A stretch of 63,950 bases of DNA, the filler included, from Kipferlia bialata (taxonomy: Eukaryota): NCBI GenBank assembly GCA_003568945.1. It is 5 parts of 5 records of this genome, joined end to end, with 100 filler letters (N's around TTAATTAATTAA, not from the genome) between each part and the next. Parts side by side here need not be neighbours in the genome. Positions count along the whole stretch, not along the records: positions 32,134 to 48,054 come from BDIP01000648.1; 4 more parts are not named here. The stretch is one strand, 5' to 3'. Below the pieces are notes generated by a model, which did no database searches, had not been told where the DNA came from, and worked only from the letters and a program-made list of their open reading frames with translations. Both the position numbers and the translations under genes were made by a program. This document shows positions 15,968-57,470 of this stretch, piece by piece; the first letter of the stretch is position 1, and every line of letters starts with the position of its first letter.

Positions 15968-16067
15968 NNNNNNNNNNNNNNNNNNNNNNNNNNNNNNNNN
16001 NNNNNNNNNNNTTAATTAATTAANNNNNNNNNNNNNNNNNNNNNNNNNNNNNNNNNNNNNNNNNNNN
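15968..16067. other. Artificial contig spacer (N-TTAATTAATTAA-N)
   Basis: 100-nt N run with an all-frame stop linker; the same linker recurs three more times. Confidence 0.97.
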
Positions 16068-32033: not shown

Positions 32034-32133
32034 NNNNNNNNNNNNNNNNNNNNNNNNNNNNNNNNNNNNNNNNNNNNTTAATTAATTAANNNNNNNNNNN
32101 NNNNNNNNNNNNNNNNNNNNNNNNNNNNNNNNN
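32034..32133. other. Artificial contig spacer
   Basis: N run with TTAATTAATTAA linker. Confidence 0.97.
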
Positions 32134-32231: not shown

Positions 32232-33436
32232 AAGGGCGACCGTGAGATTGTCCTGATCCTGGGCTCTGACCGTCTGTCCCTGAGGGTGCTGGCTAGGGTG
32301 GTTGAACTGGATGCACACAAGCATACCTCTAGCCCCTCCACACTCTTAGCTAAGTGCACTGTGGTCCCCCTCTTCACCCTGACCGACCCTGCCACTGGGT
32401 CTCCCCTGCCCTCGCACAACCACCACGGACACTCCCTGCAGAGTGTGCTGCTGGATACATGCCCCCCCAAGAGATATGTCTGGGAGGACACGGAGGAGAT
32501 AGCCTCTTTGGTCACAGACGCAGGTATAACATTGTCTATCTATGTGTCTAGTGTGTCGTATCATATCTGACCCTAGGCAGCGTAGACCTTGTTCTCTTTG
32601 CCCCCGAGGTCGATGGCCATGCAGGGGTCATGGGGGTCAGGGACACACAGCCTGGGCCGGTCATGGTGCCATACCAGCACAGACTGAGGTACTCATCATC
32701 TATTGGGTCCTGAATTGTCTGTCTACATACTACTTAGTCTTCTAGGGTCTTCGTGTCACCCGTTCGTGTAGCTGTGGAAACAGCTTTACGTGTCAGTCTA
32801 CTGTTTCTTAGTCTTTTATAGTCTTCTTGTCACCCATTGTGATACCCGTGTAGAATGGAAACTGCTTCCTCATATGTCATATCTTCCAACAGACATCTCT
32901 GTCGATGTGTCTGCCAAGTATCTCTGTCTGTCTCTCTCTCTCTCTCTCCTCACCCTTAGGATGTCTGACGACTGTGGTGGCTTCGAGCACACTCCCTCCG
33001 AGGCATATGCCGTTGGTATGGGCTGCCTATCTACAGCCAAGAAGATCATAGTGGTGGCCGTCAGTGAGCTGTATGGAGAGGCCTTGGTCAAGGTATAGGG
33101 AATATTTATATAATCATTGTTACATACCCCCATACTCTCGCTCTCTAATTGTCTAACCCCCTTAGACCCTCGACCCTCCCCACCCCTCTGCCGACCCCAC
33201 CTCGCTCTCTCTCCTGGTGTCCCAGAAGACCCTCTCCCTCTATGTTGATCCCTTTGCTGTTCTTGCTCTGCCCTGTATAGCAACCCCATGGCTGCATGCC
33301 ACATCTACTCTATGGACACAGTCGCCAAGGTATAGTCACTGTGTACTAATCTAATGGGATACTCTGGACAGTCGCCAAAGGTACTGATGTATTGAGGCAC
33401 TATTTCCAGGCTTGTCAAGAGTACCGTCGTACACAT

Positions 33437-33470
<34 letters not shown>

Positions 33471-36015
33471 GTATGTATATATTAATATATACATTATTAT
33501 TAGTATTAGTATTAATATGTGTATATATATACCAATGCCAGGCTAGTCAAGAGTGCCGTGGTGTGGACTGCCCAGCAGACAGGCAAGGCCATACCCACAC
33601 TCACTAGCAAGGTATGGAGATGTATTGATTCACATATATATAGTATTATATATGTGTATATACTAGTACCCTCCCTCACCACCCAGGACTTCCTCCAAAG
33701 GGGTCTAGGGGGACTCATCGCCAAGAGGGGCCTCAGTGCACTGCTCAGGTTTAGTAACACTATTCACTACTCGCTTGTCACACATTATCACAGTATGTCA
33801 TTCCCTTACCCTTTAGTACTGTGCAGCGTGACATTGCAGACAGGGTGAGGTTTGCCTGTCCCATCGTGCCCCTCTCTGCATCAGACCCCCACCCCACAGT
33901 GGTGGTCTTCTCCCCACACCCAGGCAAGTAGTGTGTTCTATATGCTAGTGTTTTGTTCTCTCCACACCCAGGTAGATCAGCAGTGTGTTGTATACGCTCT
34001 GTATGCTATATTCATACCAATTCTGACCTCCGTATATGGACATTCGCTCACCCCCAGATGACGACGTGGTGTCCATGGGAGGCACACTATCCAACCTCCA
34101 GGTATGGAACCATACATGACATGAATTATATATATTATTGAATGAGTGCTGTAACCCATGGAGTATCGTACAGTGTACTGATACCCAGGCCCATGGGTGC
34201 GATGTGCACGTGGCATATATGGTATCTGGCTCCAATGCCGTCAGCACAGACAGTGTCCTGGCACACTCTAGGTATATATATATATATATATATATATACG
34301 ACTAGTCATTGTTACTCTTAGGTTGGTTTAGTAGCTACAGATTTAGTAACAAGTTGGTTTAGACACCTGACAACAAATTTTGATACTTGACACTGACCCT
34401 TAGATTTGCCGAGACCCTTGCCGATCTGAACCATATTACAATACATTGCACTTCCTGTCACAGATATACTCTACTCTTACTATTAGATTTGCCGAGACCC
34501 TTGCTGATCTGAACCCTGCCCTGAAGGGGGTGTCTGAGTGGATCAAGGATAACATGGATAGTAAGGAGATAGGTACGTTATGCGTCATGATATGTCACTC
34601 TCTATTGTGTACGCCCTAACTATACATATATATATATATGTATGTGTGTGTATTATACACATACCCTCACCCTCTAGGCATCCAGCTGAAGGGTGCTGTG
34701 CGTCGGACCGAGGCCACAGCAGCTGTGGAAGGGATGGGTGTACCCCAGGACCACGTACACTTCCTGGACCTGCCATTCTACACGTACGGGTCTCTCTCTC
34801 TCTCCCCCCTATGTACATTTCTCTCCCCTTACCCCTTATCTCATCCTCTAGTACCAAGAGTGCCCCCGAGGCCCCCGAGAACGTCGACCGTGTCTCCAAG
34901 CTCCTCAACGCCTTGCAGCCCAGCCACCTCTTCCTGGCAGCTGATCTCTGTGATCCCCATGGCACTCATGGTGCATGTTACGAGGCACTGAAGGCGGCTC
35001 TCTCCACCTTCTCTCTCTCCCCCCCTCTGCCCCCCTGCAAGTGCAGTCTCTGTACCCAGGGCATGGCACCCTCTGCGTCTCAGCTGGTGCCTCTGCTGGG
35101 GGCACTGTCACCACCCGACCAGACACACACACAGCCAGAGCACCCGAGGTATGGGTGCATTCGGATATTGATATATCTACTTCGTGGATACAGTAACTAT
35201 ATGTGGAAACAGTAACTATACTCTTATATATCCTCACTCCCCAGACTGTGGCTCTACAGAGGTGCCTGGCAGGACTACCCGGCTGATCAGGTATGTATGT
35301 GTATATTCCACACACACTACCAGGGCAGTACGTATTATATATGCATGTGTACAATATACCCTGAAACCTAGGCCGATGTGATCCTGGCCCTGACTGGTGA
35401 GCAGCTGACCCAGAAGCTGGTGGCCATCCAGAGGCACTTCTCACAGGGGGCAGGTACTGTATCTATAAGTATATCGTATATATACGTAACCTTATGCTCC
35501 ACGTCATCCTCTACGTGCCATCTTTAAGGGCACAGTTGATAATGTATTTATATGTATACAAACATGTTTGTGTGTATGCACAATGTATACATGTCTCACT
35601 CCCCAGGTGCCATGTTCAAGGGCACAGACTCCAGAGAGTTCTGGGAGAGAGCCAGGGACAGAAACAAGGTGCTTAGCTATGATGCTAATTACTGCATATA
35701 GGCTAATTCTAGTGGTACTGATAGTGATACTGACCCCAGGCCCTAGCCAATGAGCTTGCCCAACTGCAACTAGTGATGCTAATATAGTATCAATAGTACT
35801 TATAGCATATACCTCTATTGATACTGACCCCAGGCCCTAGCCGATGAGCTTGCTTAGCTGGCAAATAGCCTCTACTATACCACCTAGTAGTATTACCGTG
35901 TAACTTCATATACATATTGTACTGACCCCAGGCCCTAGCCGATGAGCTTGCCCAGCTGGGCCAGGGGACCTATGTGGCAGCAGAGGCCTTTACCACTGGG
36001 TTCGAGCTTCCATAG
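32232..36015 (+). CDS. nagB: Glucosamine-6-phosphate deaminase-like domain fused to PIG-L-family deacetylase (long bacterial NagB type), 5'-truncated
   Basis: Spliced motifs KSAVVWTAQQTGKAIPTLTSKDF, VFSPHPDDDVVSMGGTL, VHVAYMVSGSNAV, KGAVRRTEA, HFLDLPFY, DLCDPHGTHGAC, LWLYRGAWQ, FKGTDSREFWERARDRN and YVAAEAF match the long Bacteroidetes-type NagB. Confidence 0.88.
33924..34057 (+). other. GC-AG intron interrupting the HPDD metal-binding motif
   Basis: CACCCAG|gcaagt...ctcacccccag|ATGACGAC restores FSPHP-DDDV; read-through gives GGC AAG TAG. Confidence 0.85.
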
Positions 36016-36645
36016 ACCTACTAGTCGATATTCCCATCCTGAGACGGTCGCGGTGTCCAGGTCTATGGGTATAGGGAGTGAGGGTCACAAGGCGTCACAC
36101 ATGGATTGACAGGATACATATCCTTGTCTCCTTAATTGAATGGTCTTCATTGCGTGTCACATTCAAGTGAGGTCGCAGTCCAGTTACTATTACGTTTGCA
36201 GAGATTCATTCTCAAGCTTTCTACCTCTTGGAGGTAACCGTTCTTTATGTGCCGATATATATCGTGATGTCAGCAGTAAATGTTCCATCGTTCCTAAGTC
36301 GAGTTGGTGTTCACAGAACACCAGCACATACAAAGACAATACTTTTAGTACCACTACCAAACCAATATTGACATGAGAGAGATCCAAAGGAAATCCTCTA
36401 TTGCTTTCCTCACCCTATAATGTACAGAAAACACGTATCGTTGAGTGGTCATCAAAGCGTCACTCCAACGAGAAAACGAAGCACAGGTGCTACAGCAGCT
36501 AGGTAGTACTCTCCCACCAGTGACTGAGTGGCAGGCGACGGACTATAGTCTCACCAGCAATCCTTATAGTGATTCAGTTACATCAGCTAGTCACCCAACA
36601 CCAAGCTAGTTACCGAGCTAAACACCAAGGCAGATACCAAGTGCC

Positions 36646-37282
36646 TCATGCCCCTAGGTAGTGGCTGAATAGAAGGCCGATGCCACTGGCCAGGAGGGAC
36701 CCGGCCTGGTTCGACAGCCCTATCCACCTGGGGGTGAGGGGGATAGACTATATTGAATACAAAGTATCTGTAAATAGAATGCACACCTCTTGACAGTCTT
36801 GTCCTGGTCCACCTATCTCTATACATATATATGTATGGATACATTAATANNNNNNNNNNNNNNNNNNNNNNNNNNNNNNNNNNNNNTGTATGGATACATT
36901 AATAGTATATATACCTCTTGATAGTCTTGTCCTGGTCCACCCCTATCTGCCCTGACAGCAGGGAGTGCCTCCTCCGATAGGCAGGGCGGGTCAGCAGGGT
37001 GTACACAATGGTGGCCACGTAGCCTTGGGATGAGAGGGAGAGAGGCAGTGGGAGTAGGGGAGAGAGAGAGGGAGATGATCTACGGATGCCACGCCTCTCG
37101 AGCGTAGTATGATGCACACAGAACGCACACAGTACCTGCGACGAATGCCTGCCAGGCCACCTCGACATACAGGCCCATGGGGATGATGTACACATCGGAG
37201 ACAGCAAAGTAGGCAAAGTAGGTGAGGAGACCGGTCTGGAAGATGTTGAGGACTAGAGGGCTGCCCCTAGTGGTTAGATAGA

Positions 37283-41058: not shown

Positions 41059-43927
41059 CTACAGTCCATCTAGCTGCCTTGCCATCTCCGCTATCCCAGC
41101 CAGGACCAGGGGTGCATTGGACACATCATCTGCTGCCTCCAGCAGACACTGTACATCCACGGGTAGGTGCCTGGTGGCGTCAAAGCGAGAGGGCAGGGAG
41201 ACACACTTCTCACCACCGTGGGTCTCGACATACTCCTGAGGGTAAGATAATACTTCAGTGCCAGAGTATATATGTACATACCTTGAGATCCGTGACTGCC
41301 CCCTTCACTGTCTCCATTGTGAGCAGTGTGTCGTATACCGGGTCCCCCGTGTCCACCCCGATGCACAGCAGACCTGTATCAGTATCAGTATCAGTATCAG
41401 TATCAGTATCAGTATCTATTATATATGATACTGATGCAGACCTGTCCCACCCCGCATGTGGTCATACTGGTAGACGGTGCCACGTCTGGCATCGGCATCA
41501 AGGGAGTGGCCCTAAGGGTGAGATATCTATATATATATGTGTGTGTATATACTGGTAGATGGTGCCACGCCTAGCATCGGCATCAAGGGAGTGGCCCTGA
41601 GGGTAAGGGAATATATATACTCTATATATACTATAGACATATGTATATACACTACCTTGCTGTACATGTACTGTACATACACTGTATATCACTGCTGTAT
41701 TGCCCAGTAGTATACATAACCACGAAATATATAGACTCATATACCTTGCTGTACATGTACTGCAGCACTGATGTCTTGTCCAGGGTGGCCAGATGGGCAA
41801 AGTGAACAGAGGGGACCCACGCCCAGACAGGCCTAGTGTCAGGGTGTATCTCTACAGATAGGGGGGGTAAGAGAGTTAGAAAGTAACACAGACCCATACA
41901 TAGGTATACACATGCATACCTGATGAGTGCCGTTGACACAAAGGACAGGGACACCAGGGGGGATACGCCTGGGGGGTTAATGTACCATGACTGGGTGTAC
42001 CTAACAAATACGATCCATGAGTTTCTTTGCATGTGATGTATGAGGCACGCACCTGGCGTGATTGACCTGAGCATAGATGTATATACATATACACCGCTGC
42101 CGGGTATGAGTGTGATAGTACATGACACCTGTAGTGCTTAATTCTTTGTATATAGTAGCGTACGGTATATAACATACCTGGCGTGATTGACCTGAGCTGC
42201 AGCCCCGACACCACCCCCTCCTGCCCTGTGTCTGTGCCTATCTGACACGACATGCCCACAGTCACATACCCAGACACACCGTGGGTGGCAGCGGAGAGAG
42301 TGACCTGGGGGTGAGGCATGTATAGAATATATCATAGGGGGAGAGAGAGAGAGAGAGAGAAACCGTGGGTGGCAGCGGAGAGAGTGACCTGGGGTGAGGT
42401 ATACATATATATGTGTGTGTATATAGAGAGAGAGAGAGAGAGAGAGACAACTTGGGTAGCGGCAGAGAGCGTGACCTGAGTGTTACTCACATACATACAT
42501 ACATCATAGGTATTCAATGCAGTTATATGCTATCATGATGGGTGTACATTATACCTGTCTTGCTGCCAGTATGAGTGTGTCTGGGGCATTGAGTGATGAA
42601 GTGATGTATATGATACACTACGAAATATATAGCAACAAGCTCATCTATATAGTACTATATTATGCATACACTTTCATGGTGTATACTATCAACTATACAG
42701 TACTATATGATACCTGTCTTGCTGCCAGAATCAATGTGTCTGGTGCATTGAGGGTGGCATACCCCACGGACCTGGCCCTAAGGGGTCAGGGAGAGAGTCA
42801 GGAATTATATACATAGAGAGGGTGATATCAAAGAGAATAGATACAAGTCAAACTACATATATGTGAAACTACTATGACAGATACCCCTACCTGTGTCCCA
42901 GTAGACACGGTGCTATGACCACGTGACTGGCCACAGCCACACAGTCAGACAGGTGCACACCCTCGCCCATGCCAGTGCTGCCCTGGGGGTTAGTGTATGA
43001 TAATCATAGACAGCGAGATACAATACATATTCATTCAAATATGCTTTCTCTTTAGATCTGGCGATGAGTTCTGATGAGACTTCATGCCCTACCTCGAGTG
43101 CAGCTGGGGGCACATAGACTGTATACACTAAGCACTGAATACTATACATATACATACTCCAATGATGCAAATACATAGATACATACATACCTCCAGTGCC
43201 GCTGGGGGCACATAGACTGTGACTGCAAAGGACAGAGAGGAACTGTCCAGACACCTAAGAGTTAGTACACAAGATATTTATGCACTATAACTAAATACTA
43301 CAGTATAGCGCCAAAGGGTGCAAAGGATAGAGACGTACTGTCCAGACACCTGAGGGGTTAGCACACATACACATCCACACCTATACATACCATTGCGAAA
43401 TGAATATGTACCTGTGGTATATAGCCCCAGCCGGTACCAGTGTATTATCCTCAGCATCTGCCTCTGCACTTTCTACCACACCCTGTATGGATGGGTGTGG
43501 GGGGCCATACACAGGCAGTGTGTGTGTGTCCTTGTCGACATACACTGCACCTGTGCCCTCACCCCCAGGGTGGGAGGGAGAGACAAAGGGGGGCAGGGAG
43601 AGAGACGCAGTGTCTGTCATGTCTACATGGGGAGAGCAGACATACGGGGGAGGGAGAGGGGAGGGGGAGGGCACCCCCAGGCCATCTGGTATGGCCACAC
43701 CCCCACCCACACCCCATGACAGTGGTGATACAACACGTGCTATGGCCTCTGGGTCACCAGAGAGAGAGGGCAGGTTGCACCGAAGGGCGAACCTTCTGAA
43801 TAAAGGGTCCATGGCCTGAGAGGGTGTGGGGGATATGAATGAGACAGAGCACCCTAGGGAGAGTGCTAGGCCCTTGACCCGGACGTGGCACCTGGCGGAT
43901 AAGAAGACGAAATATGCTATACATATA

Positions 43928-48054: not shown

Positions 48055-48154
48055 NNNNNNNNNNNNNNNNNNNNNNNNNNNNNNNNNNNNNNNNNNNNTT
48101 AATTAATTAANNNNNNNNNNNNNNNNNNNNNNNNNNNNNNNNNNNNNNNNNNNN
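48055..48154. other. Artificial contig spacer
   Basis: N run with TTAATTAATTAA linker. Confidence 0.97.
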
Positions 48155-48211
<57 letters not shown>

Positions 48212-51200
48212 AGACATCGGCTGGGGGTGAGGGGTACATAGGGAGCATACACCTCACTGATAGATGGACACTACAAGATGTGCTACAGTATAGAGTACAT
48301 GTACCTGGGAGAGTGTGTTAGCCATGTCCCTCTCCTTCTCCCCCTCCTCCATCAGATATGCCTCAGTCAGATACCCAAGGGCACCGTCAAACAGAGCCAG
48401 GGCAAGGGTCAGCGTGTCGCCCTCACACCTGGGGTCAGTTAGCATTCATACATGACACTATCTCTACAGGTATACCCAGCGCACAGAATACATATGATCG
48501 CTTCACTTAGCATTGCCCACTGGCTATATATCCATATTAACCCACTTATACCACTATACTATACCTGGTAATTTCCAGCGAGTGTGTCTCTGCCCCATGT
48601 CTCCATCGACTCATATATATACTTTCATGTATATATATACTAACACATATATCTGTACCTAGCGATGTCGACCGAGTGTGGCTCTGCCCCCTGCCTTCTC
48701 AGGGTGGCATCCTCCTCAGACTCAGACGCCTTGCTGGTCTTCTTCTTGGACTGGGGGTGGGGATAACGCAATACACATTGATATTTATACCAATATATAT
48801 GACTCATCATGTTGAACTAGGTGTGAAACGATAGTGATTTACAAAAGAATACATAACTACTCTTATACAATAAACATACTGGACATGGTAGGGGAAGATG
48901 GATGCAGAATGTGAACACGATTAAGTAGATACTTAAACACAATGATACGTCGTGTTAAGACACACCTTAGATGACTCTCCGCCGGTGACGACCTCGGTAC
49001 CAATGTCCTGAATATGAGAATACTCAAATACATACAATAACAATTAACAATTGAAAGGATGTCCCAAACCACAATGTAACGATTTATCTATATACCGTAG
49101 TATCACTGCATCCATACCGGCTGGTGGTGTCTGAGCAGTGTGAACAGAGCATTGTATATGGCGCCAAATGGAGTGGCATATGCCCTCAACTGTCTGGTGG
49201 TGACAGAGGCAATGGTGGCCATGATGTCCTGGAGGGTAAGAAGAGAAAGACAAGAAGAGTAGTAAGACAATTATCTATTTACACTAATACATATACTAAC
49301 TATAATGTCAAGTGCATAAGGTCCGGGAATACCCACCTTGTGCTCTCTGGCCACACACGCCTTGACCTTTCTGGTATCCAGGGACATGAGGAAGATGTAG
49401 AACTCCCTGGGGTGAGTCTAAATCAAGTAGAGATCATTTATGATAGTGCATGCCGATTCAATGACAAAAGGTGAGTACCTCTACAATACTAAATACTGTA
49501 TACCTAGCCTTTCCGCCCATTGTCTGTCCCCTGTCTGCCAGTATCTGCCACAGGAGGGGGACGGCCTTGAGACCAGACCTGGGGTGAGTATACACGAAAG
49601 GGGGGACCTCGTTGTGGGACGGAGTATGAATATGGATATATACATAATGTAAAGAACGCATGTACAAAAATATATATACACATTCGTGTATATGCCCTAC
49701 CTGTGTGATATGGACCCGTGTGGCACACTGCCACAGACAGAGGATAGGAGGTACCACAGACCGTCCTAGGGGGTGAGGTATATATATACTACACTGATAT
49801 CCTAGTGGATATTGAGGTAAAGTAAACAAAAAGTAAATACTGCTGTATACTATAGTATATGTACATATTCCGGTGTACCTGCTGCTGGTGGGTGACTCCA
49901 TCGAGCTGCCAACCGTCTGCACCGGCACCTAGGGGTCAGATACAAGAGCATAGGAATAGGTAAAGGAATCGAGATATGATGGCAATAGTATTGAAGAGAC
50001 ATATCATACCTGTCTCTCCGTATGTCATGAGAAGGGCCCCGGTCAGAACATGGACCAGTCTGGGGTGAGTAGAGTAACGGGTCATACCAGCACATACTAG
50101 ATTTCATCATCATTACTATACACCTGTATACACTAACTATATACACACCTGTCTGCCCTGTCCTTGTCATGGCACACCAGTGCCCTGCCCAGCATATCAG
50201 GGGGGAGGGCAGACCCGGCAATGACCTTGGATGAGACATATACAGAGAACATGGTCCATCCCAATACTAATTGAGATAGAACAATATATAGAACAAAAAC
50301 AGTGTGAACTTGATAAAAATAACCATCACACTGTACCTGCAGCACCATGGCAAGTGCCCCCCTGTCAAACCCGTCCTGCTCACAGTCTGTGCTCACTATC
50401 AGTCGGTACAGCACGGTGTGGGCGCTCTCCAGGGCAGCACTGACGTTAGAATACACAAACACCATATAAACAACAATATAACGTCATGAATGTACAAGAC
50501 AGAGTGCACACACTCAAGGGCAAAGCTGCAAACACATTTAGACACCATTCACGTACATGTCGTCCTGCCCCCTCTGTGCCTCATGTTCAGCCACATTGGC
50601 AGCAACGGGGACAATACTCTGGGGTGAGAACATGTATACATACAATGGAACTATGAACTCATACAAGAGTATTACAATATTACAATTTTTGATGGATAGA
50701 GTAGTGACCATACCTGCAGGAATGCGTCGACCAGTCCCACTGCATACGGGGTCTCATACCCACTGCCCAGGGTGTTGTCATACCTAATGGGTGAGAGATA
50801 TGTATGAAACATATNNNNNNNNNNNNNNNNNNNNNNNNNNNNNNNNNNNNNNNNNNNNNNNNNNNNNATTACTGTATATAAGCATAATATGCATAGCCAC
50901 TGCCCAGGGTGTTGTCATACCTGGGGTGAGACATATCCATGACACACACATATATACCATACTATATATCACACTGTATATATATAACCTGGGTGAGAAG
51001 GGGGGGGGGGGAATAAGATGTTCCGAGTATATGACTCTCATATATATATATATAATTGTACATGAGATACTAATACCATACCCTGCGTGTGCCTCTGGGA
51101 CTGAGAATGACAGGGCCAACTCGGTGGCAGAGGACAGGCCCTGGGGGTGAGAAAGGCAGAATGGAAAAATCCCAAATTAATATATATTATATGAATATTT

Positions 51201-54068
51201 CATCCCAGTTGGGTGGCAGAGGACAGGCCCTGGGGGTGAGGGGAGGAATAATGGCAATGGTTTGTAACAATGGTCTGTATCAACACACAATATACAATAC
51301 CTGGATGGCTGTCCTGCGCACTGCCACCTTCTCATCTTGGACTCGGTGGGAGAGCACCTCGCAGATGCTGGGGGTTAGAAAGACATAGTGGACATGTCTT
51401 GATACAAAAACTATGCTTGGGTTAAGATTGGTATTGATAAAAATATCACAGATATGCTGGAAAATCTGGAAAACGTCCAAGATGAATGGGGATACACCTA
51501 GTAAATGTCCCTAACTACAAGCATACCTGACCATCTCTGGGTCCTGGTACTTGAGGACCATCTCTTCTAGGTCCTGGATGGCAACGCCTGAGGGTGAGGC
51601 CGAAGACATACCAGCAGAACGAGAAGAGTCATATATAAACAATGGTCACATATGCGAATAGACCATACATCACCCCATACCTATCTCATCCTCTGCGACC
51701 TGTCTCTGTGCCACTGTCTCCCAGTGGCCATCCCGCAGCACACCCATGCTCTTGCCAACGGCCTGGTGATAAGACATGCATTATATATATGTGTATAGAC
51801 GTATACAGACGTGTATATATATATACATATACATGCCATGCTCTTGCCGACGGCCTGGGGGATAAGTATGTGTATTAGCAATATACATATTCAATACGTC
51901 ACGAATACATTCATCATATAATGAATAGTATAGTACTTCTTAAATGTCAATGTGTATATATCCTACCTCAGACAGTGTGTGTGTGCGTGTCAGGATGCTG
52001 GTGGCCAGAGCACAGACCAGTCTATGGTGAGAGGATGTAACTGAAGTTCAATATAGCGGAGCGTTCATGTATACATGCATATCGACTGACCTAACACCTG
52101 CCCGACGAAGAGCAACGGCCTTAGCAGATAGAGCGTGGCCAAGACCTGATGTGAGGGTATAAGTGACGCATGATATTTTGTATCGTTCTACTATCATCAG
52201 ATCAACACACTATGTAGTAATGCAAATATATATATATACCTGGTATGTCCTTCATGACCAACCCCTGCTGCACCATGTAGTCTGTGGATNNNNCCTGGTA
52301 TGTCCTTCATGACCAACCCCTGCTGCACCATGTAGTCTGTGGATATATATGGATACACCGTAAACAAAGATATATATATCGATGTAAACTATAATTAGTA
52401 TACCTGGAATATCCTTCATGACCAACCCCTGCTGCACCATGTACTCTGTAGATATATATGGATACACTATAAATCTATATCGATGTACTATCAATATACC
52501 TGGTATGTCGATCATGACCAGTCCCTGCTGCACCATGTAGTCTGTGGATAGAGACACATATATATATGTATATATATATATATATCATTAGTATACCTGG
52601 AATATCCTTCATCAATAGTCCCTGCTGCACCATGTAGTCTGTGGCTAGAGATAGGGCTATGAGGGCGGTGCTGGAGACAGTGATGTCAGTCTCACTGGCG
52701 TTAGATACACTCATCAGACATACGCACATACATATACATGAGAGAGTGTCATTGAGATCAAAGAGAGGGTAAGACACATACGTGTGTACAATATAGAGAT
52801 GTGTGTGAGAGAGTGTGTGTGTGTGTGTGTGTGATACTATACCTGGTCATGCTGACGGCTGTGTCAAAGAGTGCCTTGATGTCATTCCTCTCTCTCTCCT
52901 TCTCTGCCTCTCCCTCTGACAGAGACTCGCAGTGCTGGTTGAGCAGGAACCCAATCACATCTGGGGGGTTAGTATTGGAAACTGTGCAAGCTGTCAGAGA
53001 CAGAGTATATGTCTATGCGATTCTTTCTACTGTAATCACACATACATATGAATTACCATATGAGAAGATTACCAGCCTGCCGTTGCCGATCTGACCTCAT
53101 TGCTCCCCATATTCTTTGCATATATATACTCATTAGTAACCATATACGACAAACAAACATATACATACACATATATAATGATAACCCTACCTGCCGTGGC
53201 CGCCCTGACCTCCTTGCTCCTCTGTCTGGACAGCAGCCTCAGCAGCTTGACAGCCTGGGGTGGGTGTTAAACATACAGCATCAATGAACACTTTGAGAAG
53301 GCCGTAATGGAAACACACAATTGTTATCACGATTCAGGAATATGTGGTTGTGATCCACATGGCAATGTTTGACATTGAATTCAGGATTGTTATACCTTGT
53401 TTGGAATTGGATCCCCCCTGCCCCTGAGTGTGTCGATGAGACTGCCCACTGTGACAGACAGGGCCATGCGCTCATCCTTCTTGCGGGTGGCCTAGGTGTC
53501 AGTACATATAGTATACATATATATACCATGAATATCCTACATGGGATATACATATCATATGCATAGAGTGTGGCATACCTTGACCATGCCGTGTGCCGCT
53601 ATGGTCAAGAGCTCATCAAAGTGGACACCCTTGCGAGTGCCCTCAGTGTCCTTCCTGGGGATTAAGGGTGTAGACAGAGAGAGAGAAGAAGAGAAGAAAG
53701 AAATGCCGATTACAACACTGGACCTTGAGTATACGTATAGGTACAATGATACCTCCCATCACAGGATCTGTTCTCCTTCTCTGCCTTCTCCATCAGAATG
53801 TCAGTCAGATAGGCGCCACCGTGGAGAGACAGCACAGTGCCTGGGGTGAGACAGTAGTAGCAAGACTAATAGAGAGAGAGAGAGAGAAGAATCCAATAGT
53901 ACTGGACAGTGCCAAAGGTGAGAGGAAGAGAGAGAGTCAAACCCCGTCATAGAAAGAGATGCAACCTACTCACACAATTATACATACGAACTATGCAAAA
54001 ATACAGGTATATATGTACCCACCTAGCAGTGTCATAGCCAACAGGTACACACAATCATGAAACATAAG

Positions 54069-55198: not shown

Positions 55199-57140
55199 GG
55201 TAGATAGGGATACATATAAGTATAGATATATACATATATAGAAGGCCGAAGATAATGTGGAGATGGCAGCCGGGGGTTAGGATATGAATGATATACAAAC
55301 AACTATATATATACATATCTATATGGGTAGATATATGAATAGACATATACATGTAGAGAGCCAGAGATGAAGGGGGAGATGGCAGCTGGGGGTGATACAT
55401 TAGGGTATGGTTATATGAACCATTATACATTGGTAAATGAGAAATATGAATACACATATATAGAGATCCAGAGATGGAATTGGGGACTCCAGTCGGAGAG
55501 TGAGATCTACTACGTAAAACATGTAGTTCGTGTGTATGAAGCATAGCTGTGGCATCGGATGTCCTATACAACTATGCCTGGGGAATACATAACATATGAA
55601 TTAATATATGTGAGTTTACATACCTATGACTGGAGTGATGAGGATGCGCTCTGGGGGCATGAGACCCACAAGGGCACACAGACACACGCCTGGTGTTGGG
55701 GATAGATAGGTGTATATACAGAATACATACCAACATGCATATGATTGGTCAGAAGTGGGATACAAATCAATATAATATATATGGGCATGAGACCCACAAG
55801 GGCACACAGACACACGCCTGGTATTAGGGATATTCTCCATGGAATAGAATAGTAAATGTTATATAATTATGTGTATTGGGTATCAATATGGATTGATTGC
55901 ATAGACTAATATATATACACACATCAATATACCTGCCGCCGAGTACCCCATAGCCACGGTGTATTTATACATATCTCTAGATATATGAATATATATACAT
56001 ATACATGATAGTACCTGCCCCCGAGTACCCCATGGCCACTGTATTCATGTATATATATCCCAATAGACACATAGATATACACATATAACACCTGCCCCCG
56101 AGTACCCATATGGCCACTGCGTATACACATATATAGATCTCTCTCTCTATATATATATATATATACATATATGTACCTGCCCCTGAATAGCCCATGGCCA
56201 CTGCGTATGCCAGGCCTGCACTCAGCCTCATCTGACTCAGGGTGGACAGGGAGAGAGAGACATCATCGTCATACTCCTCACTCTCACTCTCTCCCTCCCT
56301 CTCCATGGCAACATCCCCAGAGGCACACTCGGAAGGAACATCTCCCTCTCCCTCTCCCTCTGCATCTCCACTCATTGTAGCATCTCCCTCTGCCTCTCCC
56401 TGGGTCTCTGCCGCAGCTTCCTCCTCCTCCTCCTCTGGCTCACTCTGAGAGTGAGAGGAGAATGATACCAATATACCACACATCTTCTCTGTGTACACAG
56501 GTACTATATACACCCACCTCGTATGTCGTCCTGTAGTCCAGTATGTAAAGCAAGTATATATAGATATATAATAGTATAGACAAACATACTCTATATTACC
56601 TCATAGGTCGTCCTGCAGTCCAGTATGTAAAGCATAAGAATGTCAATACATATACATAATAGTATGGTTATTTACTCTCTCTCCCACCTCGTATGTTGTC
56701 CTGCAATCCAGTATGTTAAGTGTATGGATATATATATATATATATTTATATAGGCATACACACTCCCTCCCACCTCGTATGTAGTCCTGCAGTCCAGTGT
56801 GTTAAGTGTATGCATATATATATATATCTATTTATATAGGCATACACACTCTCTCCCACCTCGTATGTTGTCCTGCAGTCCAGTGTGTTGAGCATAAGAA
56901 TGTCAATACATATACATAATAGTATGGTTATTTACACTCTCTCCCACCTCGTATGTTGTCCTGCAGTCCAGTATGTTAAGTGTATGGATATATATACATA
57001 TACATAAATGATATGGTTATTAGTATTGTGGTAGTATCTATACTCTCTCCCACCTCGTATGTTGTCCTGCAGTCCAGTGTGTTGAGCCTTGGGATGAGCT
57101 CTCCCAGCATGGGCTCAAAGTCAACATCCTCCAGCCAGTC
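48155..57140 (-). CDS. Large HEAT-repeat protein, possibly the cohesin regulator PDS5; truncated at both ends
   Basis: More than 25 short helical exons. GVCLCALVGLMPPE resembles PDS5 ACCLADIxRIYAPE, and ICEVLSHRVQDEKVAVRRTAIQGL resembles ERxxDKxxxVRxxAxxGL. A condensin HEAT subunit is not excluded. Confidence 0.5.
52238..52645 (-). repeat. Array of exon-end echoes encoding (D/E)YMVQQGL(V/L)M(K/I)DIP
   Basis: Five copies of cctggtatgtccttcatgaccaacccctgctgcaccatgtagtctgtgg-like sequence, including the real exon. Confidence 0.9.
56513..57090 (-). repeat. Array of seven copies of an exon 3' end plus donor (about 86-nt period)
   Basis: cccacctcgtatgttgtcctgcagtccagt near 56513, 56597, 56683, 56769, 56855, 56943 and 57049; only the last continues into the full exon (LNTLDCRTTYE|gt). 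Confidence 0.92.
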
Positions 57141-57370: not shown

Positions 57371-57470
57371 NNNNNNNNNNNNNNNNNNNNNNNNNNNNNN
57401 NNNNNNNNNNNNNNTTAATTAATTAANNNNNNNNNNNNNNNNNNNNNNNNNNNNNNNNNNNNNNNNNNNN
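57371..57470. other. Artificial contig spacer
   Basis: N run with TTAATTAATTAA linker. Confidence 0.97.

What the first reader, a model, noticed from the sequence alone, without database searches (positions are those of the whole stretch)
33905..34060. Essential GC donor with a downstream GT echo that looks like a recursive (ratchet) splice site
Seen: the catalytic HPDD motif needs the non-canonical donor CCAG|gcaagt (33924). An echo 48 nt downstream reads ttctctccacacccAG|GTagat, a pyrimidine tract plus AG abutting GT. Using only the echo GT would introduce a stop. Inference: donor echoes of exons ending in AG create zero-length-exon ratchet points, which could explain how echo-laden introns are tolerated.
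Basis: partly seen in the sequence, partly recalled or inferred. Interest (0 to 1): 0.7.

Follow-up and report, generated by a model that had tools for sequence, protein, structure and literature searches.

The report
Skipped splice-site copies in protist introns
In a gene of a free-living protist, a 134-base intron is cut at an unusual GC start signal while a copy of the exon end with a normal GT signal 48 bases further in is passed over, and similar skipped copies sit in many neighbouring introns, which likely reflects small duplications ignored in one-step splicing rather than stepping-stone splice sites.

Summary
Observation confirmed; ratchet reading not supported as a general rule and unproven at this site. 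A spliced contig joins 33923 to 34058, so the GC-AG intron is used; the public protein (named Kipferlia bialata) already has it. The echo is the second unit of a 48-nt tandem duplication (39 of 48 bases match, intron side included). Its AG scores like a modest acceptor, but no better than the exon end it was copied from, and lacks the branch motif of 61 of 67 real acceptors. Such echoes lie in 27 of 67 mapped introns (genes partly chosen as echo-rich). The first donor and last acceptor are used although echo sites often score as high. Only 14 of 24 GT-bearing donor echoes end in YAG, 2 have a branch motif, none gained one. Best reading: duplication relics skipped in one step, probably by pairing sites across exons, unexpected for ~100-nt introns. 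Unexplained: echo spacing equals normal intron length. Intermediates and lariats could not be tested. The scan has no note on this genome; related notes concern other genomes.

The parts
32232..36015 (+). Host gene, 5'-partial, 16 exons and 15 introns: glucosamine-6-phosphate deaminase-like protein fused to a PIG-L family deacetylase domain (609 aa)
   Evidence: Spliced contig; model identical to P0001; PF02585 3e-19; PRK02122 344 bits, below its 384 cut-off
33817..33923 (+). 107-nt exon ending in CCAG; encodes the motif up to His-Pro and the first base of Asp
   Evidence: Joints 33746->33815 and 33918->34053, no other letters; open frame
33924..34057 (+). 134-nt GC-AG intron, phase 1
   Evidence: Skip of 134 nt in the contig; coordinates confirmed
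33924..33929 (+). Used donor GCAAGT; only GC donor among 67 mapped introns; AAGT at +3..+6 found in 0 of 66 GT donors
33929..33931 (+). In-frame TAG that would end translation if only the echo donor were used
33908..33955 (+). First unit of a 48-nt tandem duplication (16 nt exon end, donor, 5' intron)
   Evidence: Alignment 39 of 48 identical; intron side outscores 34 of 34 foreign introns
33956..34005 (+). Second unit (the echo): exon-end copy 33956-33971, GT donor 33972, copy of the 5' intron; differs from the exon at 33961 (T) vs 33913 (C)
33969..33977 (+). CAG|GTAGAT junction, the candidate ratchet point; no YTNAY branch motif 5-14 nt upstream; not used in the contig
34047..34057 (+). Predicted branch motif CTCAC (A34050) close to the used acceptor CAG
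   Evidence: Sequence; same layout in 61 of 67 acceptors
34058..34101 (+). 44-nt exon completing HPDD
33330..33541 (+). Intron with a skipped donor echo (33381) and a skipped acceptor echo (33409)
34272..34486 (+). Intron with a skipped acceptor echo (34403, score 17.2) stronger than the used acceptor (6.8)
35454..35606 (+). Intron with a decayed acceptor echo (35514, AG lost)
35669..35931 (+). Last intron; two skipped acceptor echoes (35739, 35833) scoring the same as the used acceptor

Best explanation
The transcript is spliced from the GC donor at 33924 to 34057, and the GT echo is the second unit of a 48-nt tandem duplication that is likely skipped in a single step, probably because this organism pairs splice sites across exons so that half-exon copies are ignored. 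Shown: GC use in the assembled transcript; the duplication; frequent half-exon copies; use of the outermost sites in this gene. Inferred: the first donor changed GT to GC after the duplication and is carried by its AAGT flank; the AG|GT junction is a by-product of exons ending in AG (62 of 67) and of a pyrimidine-rich coding stretch; a donor is chosen by closeness to the upstream acceptor across the exon and an acceptor by closeness to the next donor; rare use of inner sites gives stops or frameshifts and would be lost; duplications that favoured inner sites were purged.
For: Contig uses the outermost sites in 5 of 5 echo-bearing introns of this gene, 7 echoes. Unit alignment covers exon and intron side. 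Echo and source exon end score alike as acceptors, 12.9 vs 13.3; 0 of 26 donor echoes gained a branch motif. Echo donors score at least as high as the used donor in 15 of 24 (about 6 ties), echo acceptors in 12 of 19, so position rather than strength decides. Copies are shorter than their exon in 40 of 40 measurable cases and none has a good partner site at its far end (best acceptor 2.4, best donor 5.7; 10th-percentile real sites 7.1 and 6.7). Inner-site use gives a stop in 30, a frameshift in 10 and an open frame in 3 of 43. Preference for sites closest across the exon is the exon-definition rule in PMC9225289 (passages).
Against: One-step and stepwise removal give the same mRNA, and contigs drop rare forms, so cannot show one step. 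Outermost use is forced by the reading frame, and for 52 of 67 introns it comes from annotated proteins, not reads. Introns of ~100 nt are in the size range where intron definition and inner sites are expected (PMC9225289). With loose thresholds 16 acceptor-before-donor pairs lie inside introns against 14 in the other order, so no lack of pseudo-exons was shown. Echo spacing (medians 96.5 and 93.5 nt) matches echo-free intron length (98.5, KS p=0.52), which stepwise removal predicts and this model does not explain. The intron side is alignable in only 3-5 of 25 echoes. Matrices come from 67 introns; array copies are not independent.
Confidence: 0.62

Rival explanations
1. Ratchet or rescue at this site: the 48-nt piece 33924-33971 is removed as its own intron (before or after the 86-nt piece 33972-34057), at least part of the time.
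For: Exact CAG|GT geometry; best acceptor score of 26 donor echoes, above 20 of 67 real acceptors; 6 of 67 real acceptors also lack YTNAY; both pieces fit the intron size range; human short introns show occasional recursive lariats (PMC10156609 passages).
Against: No branch motif and no gain over the source exon end; no second donor downstream that would make a cryptic RS-exon (PMC8605326 introduction); the identical signal at the real exon end is not used as an acceptor in the contig; conventional lariats dominate in short human introns.
Confidence: 0.12
2. General stepwise removal: every echo marks an intron-sized module removed in turn.
For: Step length matches intron length; model-free spacing starts at 77 nt (32 donor pairs) and 83 nt (35 acceptor pairs) though 30-260 was scanned; 24 of 26 donor echoes keep GT and 19 of 22 acceptor echoes keep YAG.
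Against: 10 of 24 donor echoes are AAG/GAG while 66 of 67 real acceptors are YAG; 2 of 24 have a branch motif; YAG not enriched (p=1.0; model-free 10 of 25 families vs 41 of 62, p=0.01 towards fewer); acceptor echoes rarely regenerate GT.
Confidence: 0.04
3. No special site pairing: inner sites are used often, the faulty RNAs are degraded, and only the outermost product accumulates.
For: 40 of 43 inner-site products carry a stop or frameshift; echo sites are often as strong as used ones; contigs hide unstable forms.
Against: Genes with many echo-laden introns (17 of 20-32 introns in places carry several) would lose most transcripts (inference); one unbroken contig of depth 659 spans all 15 introns.
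Confidence: 0.14
4. First-come commitment for donors during transcription plus a separate rule for acceptors, without true exon definition.
For: First donor always used; branch motif fixed 5-14 nt from the AG suggests its own acceptor rules; reduced spliceosome, 87 of 174 proteins found (PMC6679479 passages).
Against: First-come predicts the first acceptor too, yet the last is used, including past two equal copies in the final intron.
Confidence: 0.06
5. C33925 is a base error (ordinary GT donor) or the echo is an assembly artefact.
For: No DNA reads were available; the contig does not cover intron bases.
Against: Echo differs from its source by substitutions and gaps; AAGT flank unique among 67 donors fits a compensated GC donor (GC-donor rule recalled).
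Confidence: 0.02

Closest known systems
Recursive splicing at ratchet points / zero-nucleotide exons (Drosophila Ubx, kuz, Bx; PMC8605326 outline and introduction; PMC10156609 passages)
   Same: Adjacent AG|GT inside an intron; product identical to one-step splicing.
   Different: Host intron 134 nt, not kilobases; no branch motif; no cryptic RS-exon donor behind it; arises by copying the exon end; no intermediate seen.
Competing duplicated splice sites and the exon-centric proximity rule (PMC9225289 passages; Reed and Maniatis 1986 seen only as described there, its exon-shortening result recalled)
   Same: Two like sites compete and the ones closest across the exon win.
   Different: Natural and frequent here, and in ~100-nt introns where the inner, intron-proximal sites are expected to win.
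Intron gain by tandem duplication of an AG|GY proto-splice site (PMC2891723 passages)
   Same: A tandem duplication leaves GY...AG between two copies of an exon end, with length equal to the unit.
   Different: The duplication spans an existing exon-intron border and lengthens an intron rather than making a new one; the unit is not shown to be spliced alone.
GC-AG U2-type introns (recalled)
   Same: GC at +1/+2 with a near-perfect AAGT flank, branch motif and CAG acceptor.
   Different: Used in preference to a GT copy 48 nt downstream.
Stwintrons (search listing and abstracts only)
   Same: Nested intron-like pieces.
   Different: Here no splice signal of the outer intron is interrupted, so two steps are not required.

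Membership tests
Recursive splice site (ratchet point) | YAG directly followed by GT inside an intron | tested here: met
   CAG|GT at 33969-33973
Recursive splice site (ratchet point) | Working acceptor with branch point upstream of the AG | tested here: inconclusive
   Score 12.9, above 20 of 67 real acceptors, but no YTNAY (61 of 67 real have it) and equal to the source exon end
Recursive splice site (ratchet point) | Splicing intermediate or two lariats | not testable with these tools
   Only contigs of one run; none joins at 33971/33972, but contigs drop rare forms
Recursive splice site (ratchet point) | Cryptic RS-exon with its own downstream donor (Drosophila model) | tested here: not met
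   No further strong donor in 33973-34057
Recursive splice site (ratchet point) | Signs of selection on the acceptor across such sites | tested here: not met
   No YAG enrichment, 0 of 26 branch-motif gains
Recursive splice site (ratchet point) | Conservation of the site in related species | not testable with these tools
   No genome held for the window; only protein homologues at 31-37% identity
GC-AG spliceosomal intron | GC donor used in the spliced transcript | tested here: met
GC-AG spliceosomal intron | Branch motif and YAG acceptor | tested here: met
   CTCAC 34047-34051, CAG 34055-34057
GC-AG spliceosomal intron | C at +2 confirmed in genomic reads | not testable with these tools
   No DNA run listed
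Exon-definition splicing | Sites closest across the exon are chosen among competitors of like strength | tested here: met
   5 of 5 introns by contig, the rest by annotation; echo sites equal or stronger in 15 of 24 and 12 of 19; survivor bias applies
Exon-definition splicing | Splice-site mutation causes exon skipping rather than intron retention | not testable with these tools
   Needs experiment
Exon-definition splicing | Lack of complete pseudo-exons in introns | tested here: inconclusive
   No copy has both ends, but 16 loose acceptor-before-donor pairs exist; no expectation computed
Stwintron | Inner intron interrupts a donor, branch point or acceptor of the outer intron | tested here: not met
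   Outer signals are intact in the DNA
PIG-L/LmbE deacetylase domain (PF02585) | Pfam score above cut-off and HxDD motif | tested here: met
   70.2 bits vs 28.2; motif invariant in 13 of 13
NCBIfam PRK02122 glucosamine-6-phosphate deaminase-like | Score above 384 bits | tested here: not met
   344.1 bits for a 5'-partial protein

The most novel reading that the evidence does not exclude
In this short-intron protist, tandem duplications across exon-intron borders keep adding intron-sized modules, and where a copied exon end reads like an acceptor, as at 33971, it becomes a working ratchet point: the intron is removed in two 48- and 86-nt steps. That would show recursive sites being born from exon-end copies and give a route by which introns grow and multiply in the intron-richest known fornicate.
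Probability: 0.12. Interest if true: 0.7.

Novelty: new variant of a known kind. Interest (0 to 1): 0.4.

Why it matters
The single site is mostly ordinary: a GC-AG intron already in the public gene model plus a small duplication. Its setting is more useful. Many introns here hold natural duplicated-splice-site experiments in which inner sites as strong as the used ones are ignored. If this reflects pairing across exons, it would place exon definition in a metamonad with ~100-nt introns and a reduced spliceosome, against the usual intron-length rule, and existing RNA reads could test it genome-wide. The match of echo spacing to intron length also bears on how this lineage gained or lengthened its ~125,000 introns (number from PMC5874029).

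Tried and rejected
The run search listed one holder, kind guessed as RNA, contigs only; no RNA holder on record and no DNA run. A second laying of contigs on a neighbouring stretch gave no data, so transcript evidence covers one gene only. All-GT route with the echo as a microexon: keeps HPDD but is not in the contig and its acceptor scores -0.6, below 35 of 35 real ones. TAG read as an amino acid: rejected, TAG ends two genes. RNA structure as the reason for skipping: z = -0.03. A size floor excluding a 48-nt step: not found (53 and 46 nt introns exist). Long junction repeats as a general intron-gain mark: mean 3.33 vs 3.25 in controls, p=0.18. Depletion of pseudo-exons: not shown. No solved structure by sequence; no Pfam family for P0121 or P0122. 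My first branch motif (YTVAY) missed CTTAC and was widened to YTNAY. Literature searches showed no description of these echoes in Kipferlia; one search listed 20 of 33 papers and 20 of 1,894; searches were empty; supplements were not seen.

Full report
Setting. The window is five contigs joined by spacers. The finding lies in a 5'-partial gene on the + strand. A 15-intron model translates to 609 residues identical to P0001, which its source names as a Kipferlia bialata protein; the taxonomy places the species in Fornicata. The protein matches PF02585 and, below cut-off, PRK02122. SPHPDDD is invariant in 13 of 13 aligned proteins; its catalytic role is recalled family knowledge. P0001 is a prediction from what is probably the same DNA and is not independent support.

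Observation. The GC donor (33924), the echo (AG 33970-33971, GT 33972) and the acceptor (34057) are as described. One run, X1, holds the stretch as contigs; its kind is a guess, but its 2194-nt contig lacks all introns. It skips 134 nt at 33918->34053 with 5 bases of slide, which is 33923|34058. Twelve joints of this gene were listed and three rows were dropped at repeats; the 15-intron model reproduces the contig coordinate at 9 of 9 places, which fixes those three as well. No contig joins at the echo. Using the echo GT alone gives an in-frame 48-nt insert with TAG at 33929-33931, and TAG is a real stop here. An all-GT route (donor 33850, echo as a 23-nt microexon) also keeps HPDD on paper but is not what the contig shows.

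What the echo is. 33908-33955 and 33956-34005 align at 39 of 48 bases, across both the exon end and the intron start; the intron side outscores 34 of 34 foreign introns. It is a tandem duplication over the exon-intron border. The pyrimidine run and AG are copied coding sequence. The used donor is the only GC among 67 mapped introns and the only one with AAGT at +3..+6; ignoring +1/+2 it scores 7.3 against 4.7 for the echo, while with them it scores 4.6 against 10.3. I infer GT became GC after the duplication.

The wider pattern. I mapped two more proteins onto the window (P0121, dropping its 2 doubtful 5'-most of 22 introns; P0122, all 32, one spanning a gap). These genes were chosen partly because they looked echo-rich, so prevalence is biased upward; the second contig has only 2 model-free hits and the fifth none. 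Of 67 introns, 27 hold echoes: 26 copies of exon end plus donor and 22 copies of acceptor plus exon start; controls 8 and 4 of 4422. Donor echoes precede acceptor echoes in 6 of 6 introns with both, as duplication geometry would give. The first donor and last acceptor are used: by contig in 5 of 5 introns of this gene, by annotation elsewhere. Echo donors score at least as high as the used donor in 15 of 24 (about 6 ties) and echo acceptors in 12 of 19. Copies are shorter than their exon in 40 of 40 measurable cases, and none has a good partner site at its far end. Inner-site use gives a stop in 30, a frameshift in 10 and an open frame in 3 of 43; two inserts cross gaps, so up to two calls are uncertain.

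Test of the ratchet idea. Real acceptors are YAG in 66 of 67 and have YTNAY 5-14 nt upstream in 61 of 67; exons end in AG in 62 of 67, so AG|GT in a donor echo is automatic. Only 14 of 24 GT-bearing donor echoes are YAG, 2 have a branch motif, both inherited, none gained. Source exon ends are YAG in 10 of 16 introns with an echo and 31 of 51 without (p=1.0). A model-free scan, leaving out 3.7 kb of the third contig, found 32 donor pairs (0-1 in 10 shuffles; one pair is an acceptor echo read on the wrong strand), 13 YAG, 1 with a branch motif; 10 of 25 families are YAG against 41 of 62 real AG ends. Acceptor echoes would regenerate GT in 3 of 15 introns against 11 of 52, GT or GC in 9 of 15 against 21 of 52 (p=0.24). 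So ratchets cannot be the general way echoes are tolerated. The finding's own echo is the best case among donor echoes: 12.9 as an acceptor, above 20 of 67 real ones, next best 7.4, but equal to its source exon end (13.3) and without YTNAY. No donor follows it to form a cryptic RS-exon. A 48-nt step is not excluded by size. Intermediates and lariats could not be examined.

Results against my reading. Spacing between like sites (medians 96.5 nt, n=26; 93.5 nt, n=22) is indistinguishable from echo-free intron length (98.5 nt, n=40; KS p=0.52), and model-free spacing starts at 77 and 83 nt although 30-260 was scanned. Stepwise removal predicts this; a size-biased duplication process or selection against close competitors could too. 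The finding's 48-nt unit is among the shortest. Exon copies are about 91% identical, but the intron side is distinguishable from foreign introns in only 3 to 5 of 25 echoes, with partial likeness on average (5.3 and 5.5 of 10 against 3.5 and 4.0); detection bias and faster decay of A+T-rich repeats may explain it. With loose thresholds 16 acceptor-before-donor pairs lie in introns against 14 the other way. Outermost use is also what survival of the reading frame forces.

Mechanism. Most likely the intron is removed in one step from GC 33924 to AG 34057 (about 0.85), and site choice follows closeness across the exon (0.62 overall). PMC9225289 (passages) reports inner sites preferred under intron definition, outer sites under exon definition, and a switch near 200-250 nt; echo-free introns here have a median of 98.5 nt and echo-laden ones 230 nt, so either the organism uses exon definition generally or the added length tips these introns into it. 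Rivals: ratchet or rescue at this site 0.12, frequent mis-splicing with decay 0.14, first-come donor choice 0.06, general stepwise removal 0.04, sequence error 0.02.

Literature seen. PMC5874029 passages and methods section; PMC6679479, PMC10156609, PMC2891723, PMC10711314, PMC9225289 passages; PMC8605326 outline and introduction; PMC9860276 one passage, no mention of Kipferlia in the main text; stwintron papers as listings. Searches showed no description of exon-end echoes in this organism; coverage is partial and supplements were not seen. The scan holds no note on this genome; notes on other genomes describe a tandem acceptor array where the first copy is used and arrays of complete mini-introns, both unlike this case and unchecked by me.

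Verdict. Observation confirmed; ratchet interpretation unproven here and not general; the echo pattern with outermost-site use is a new variant of known splice-site competition. Interest 0.4.

Noticed in passing
15968-16067, 32034-32133, 48055-48154, 57371-57470: N-flanked spacers join five separate contigs; genes do not run across them.
   Followed up: yes
whole window: Spacing between echo and source site starts near 80 nt and matches intron length; cause unknown.
   Followed up: partly
50921/50920 (- strand); also 43350/43349, 54444/54443, 42053/42052: Four more intronic AG|GT junctions; 50921 has a full branch motif (acceptor 22.1, donor 11.2) and is a stronger ratchet candidate than the finding, though beside a sequence gap.
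   Followed up: partly
41374-41441 (- strand): 68-nt annotated intron with a 10-nt direct repeat at its junctions and a six-base repeat filling; 1 of 67 reaches 8 nt (0.4% in controls), a possible recent gain by break repair.
   Followed up: partly
56445-57053, 52146-52596 (- strand); 9373-9810, 2880-3340 (+ strand): Arrays of four to seven exon-end copies, each with GT, in single introns.
   Followed up: partly
35371: A contig of X1 starts at this acceptor with 255 letters in front that fit nothing in the laid stretch: chimera, paralogue or trans-joined RNA.
   Followed up: no
36389-36813 (- strand): A second spliced contig (depth 69.6, joint 36724->36784, CT..AC) marks a convergent neighbouring gene.
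   Followed up: no
67 mapped introns: Exons end in AG in 62 of 67; branch motif sits 5-14 nt from the acceptor; donor +4 is mostly T or C; one AAG acceptor at 50226.
   Followed up: partly
32232-36015: The deaminase-deacetylase fusion has mostly bacterial best hits plus two eukaryotic transcriptome hits, one from Dysnectes brevis; origin not examined.
   Followed up: no
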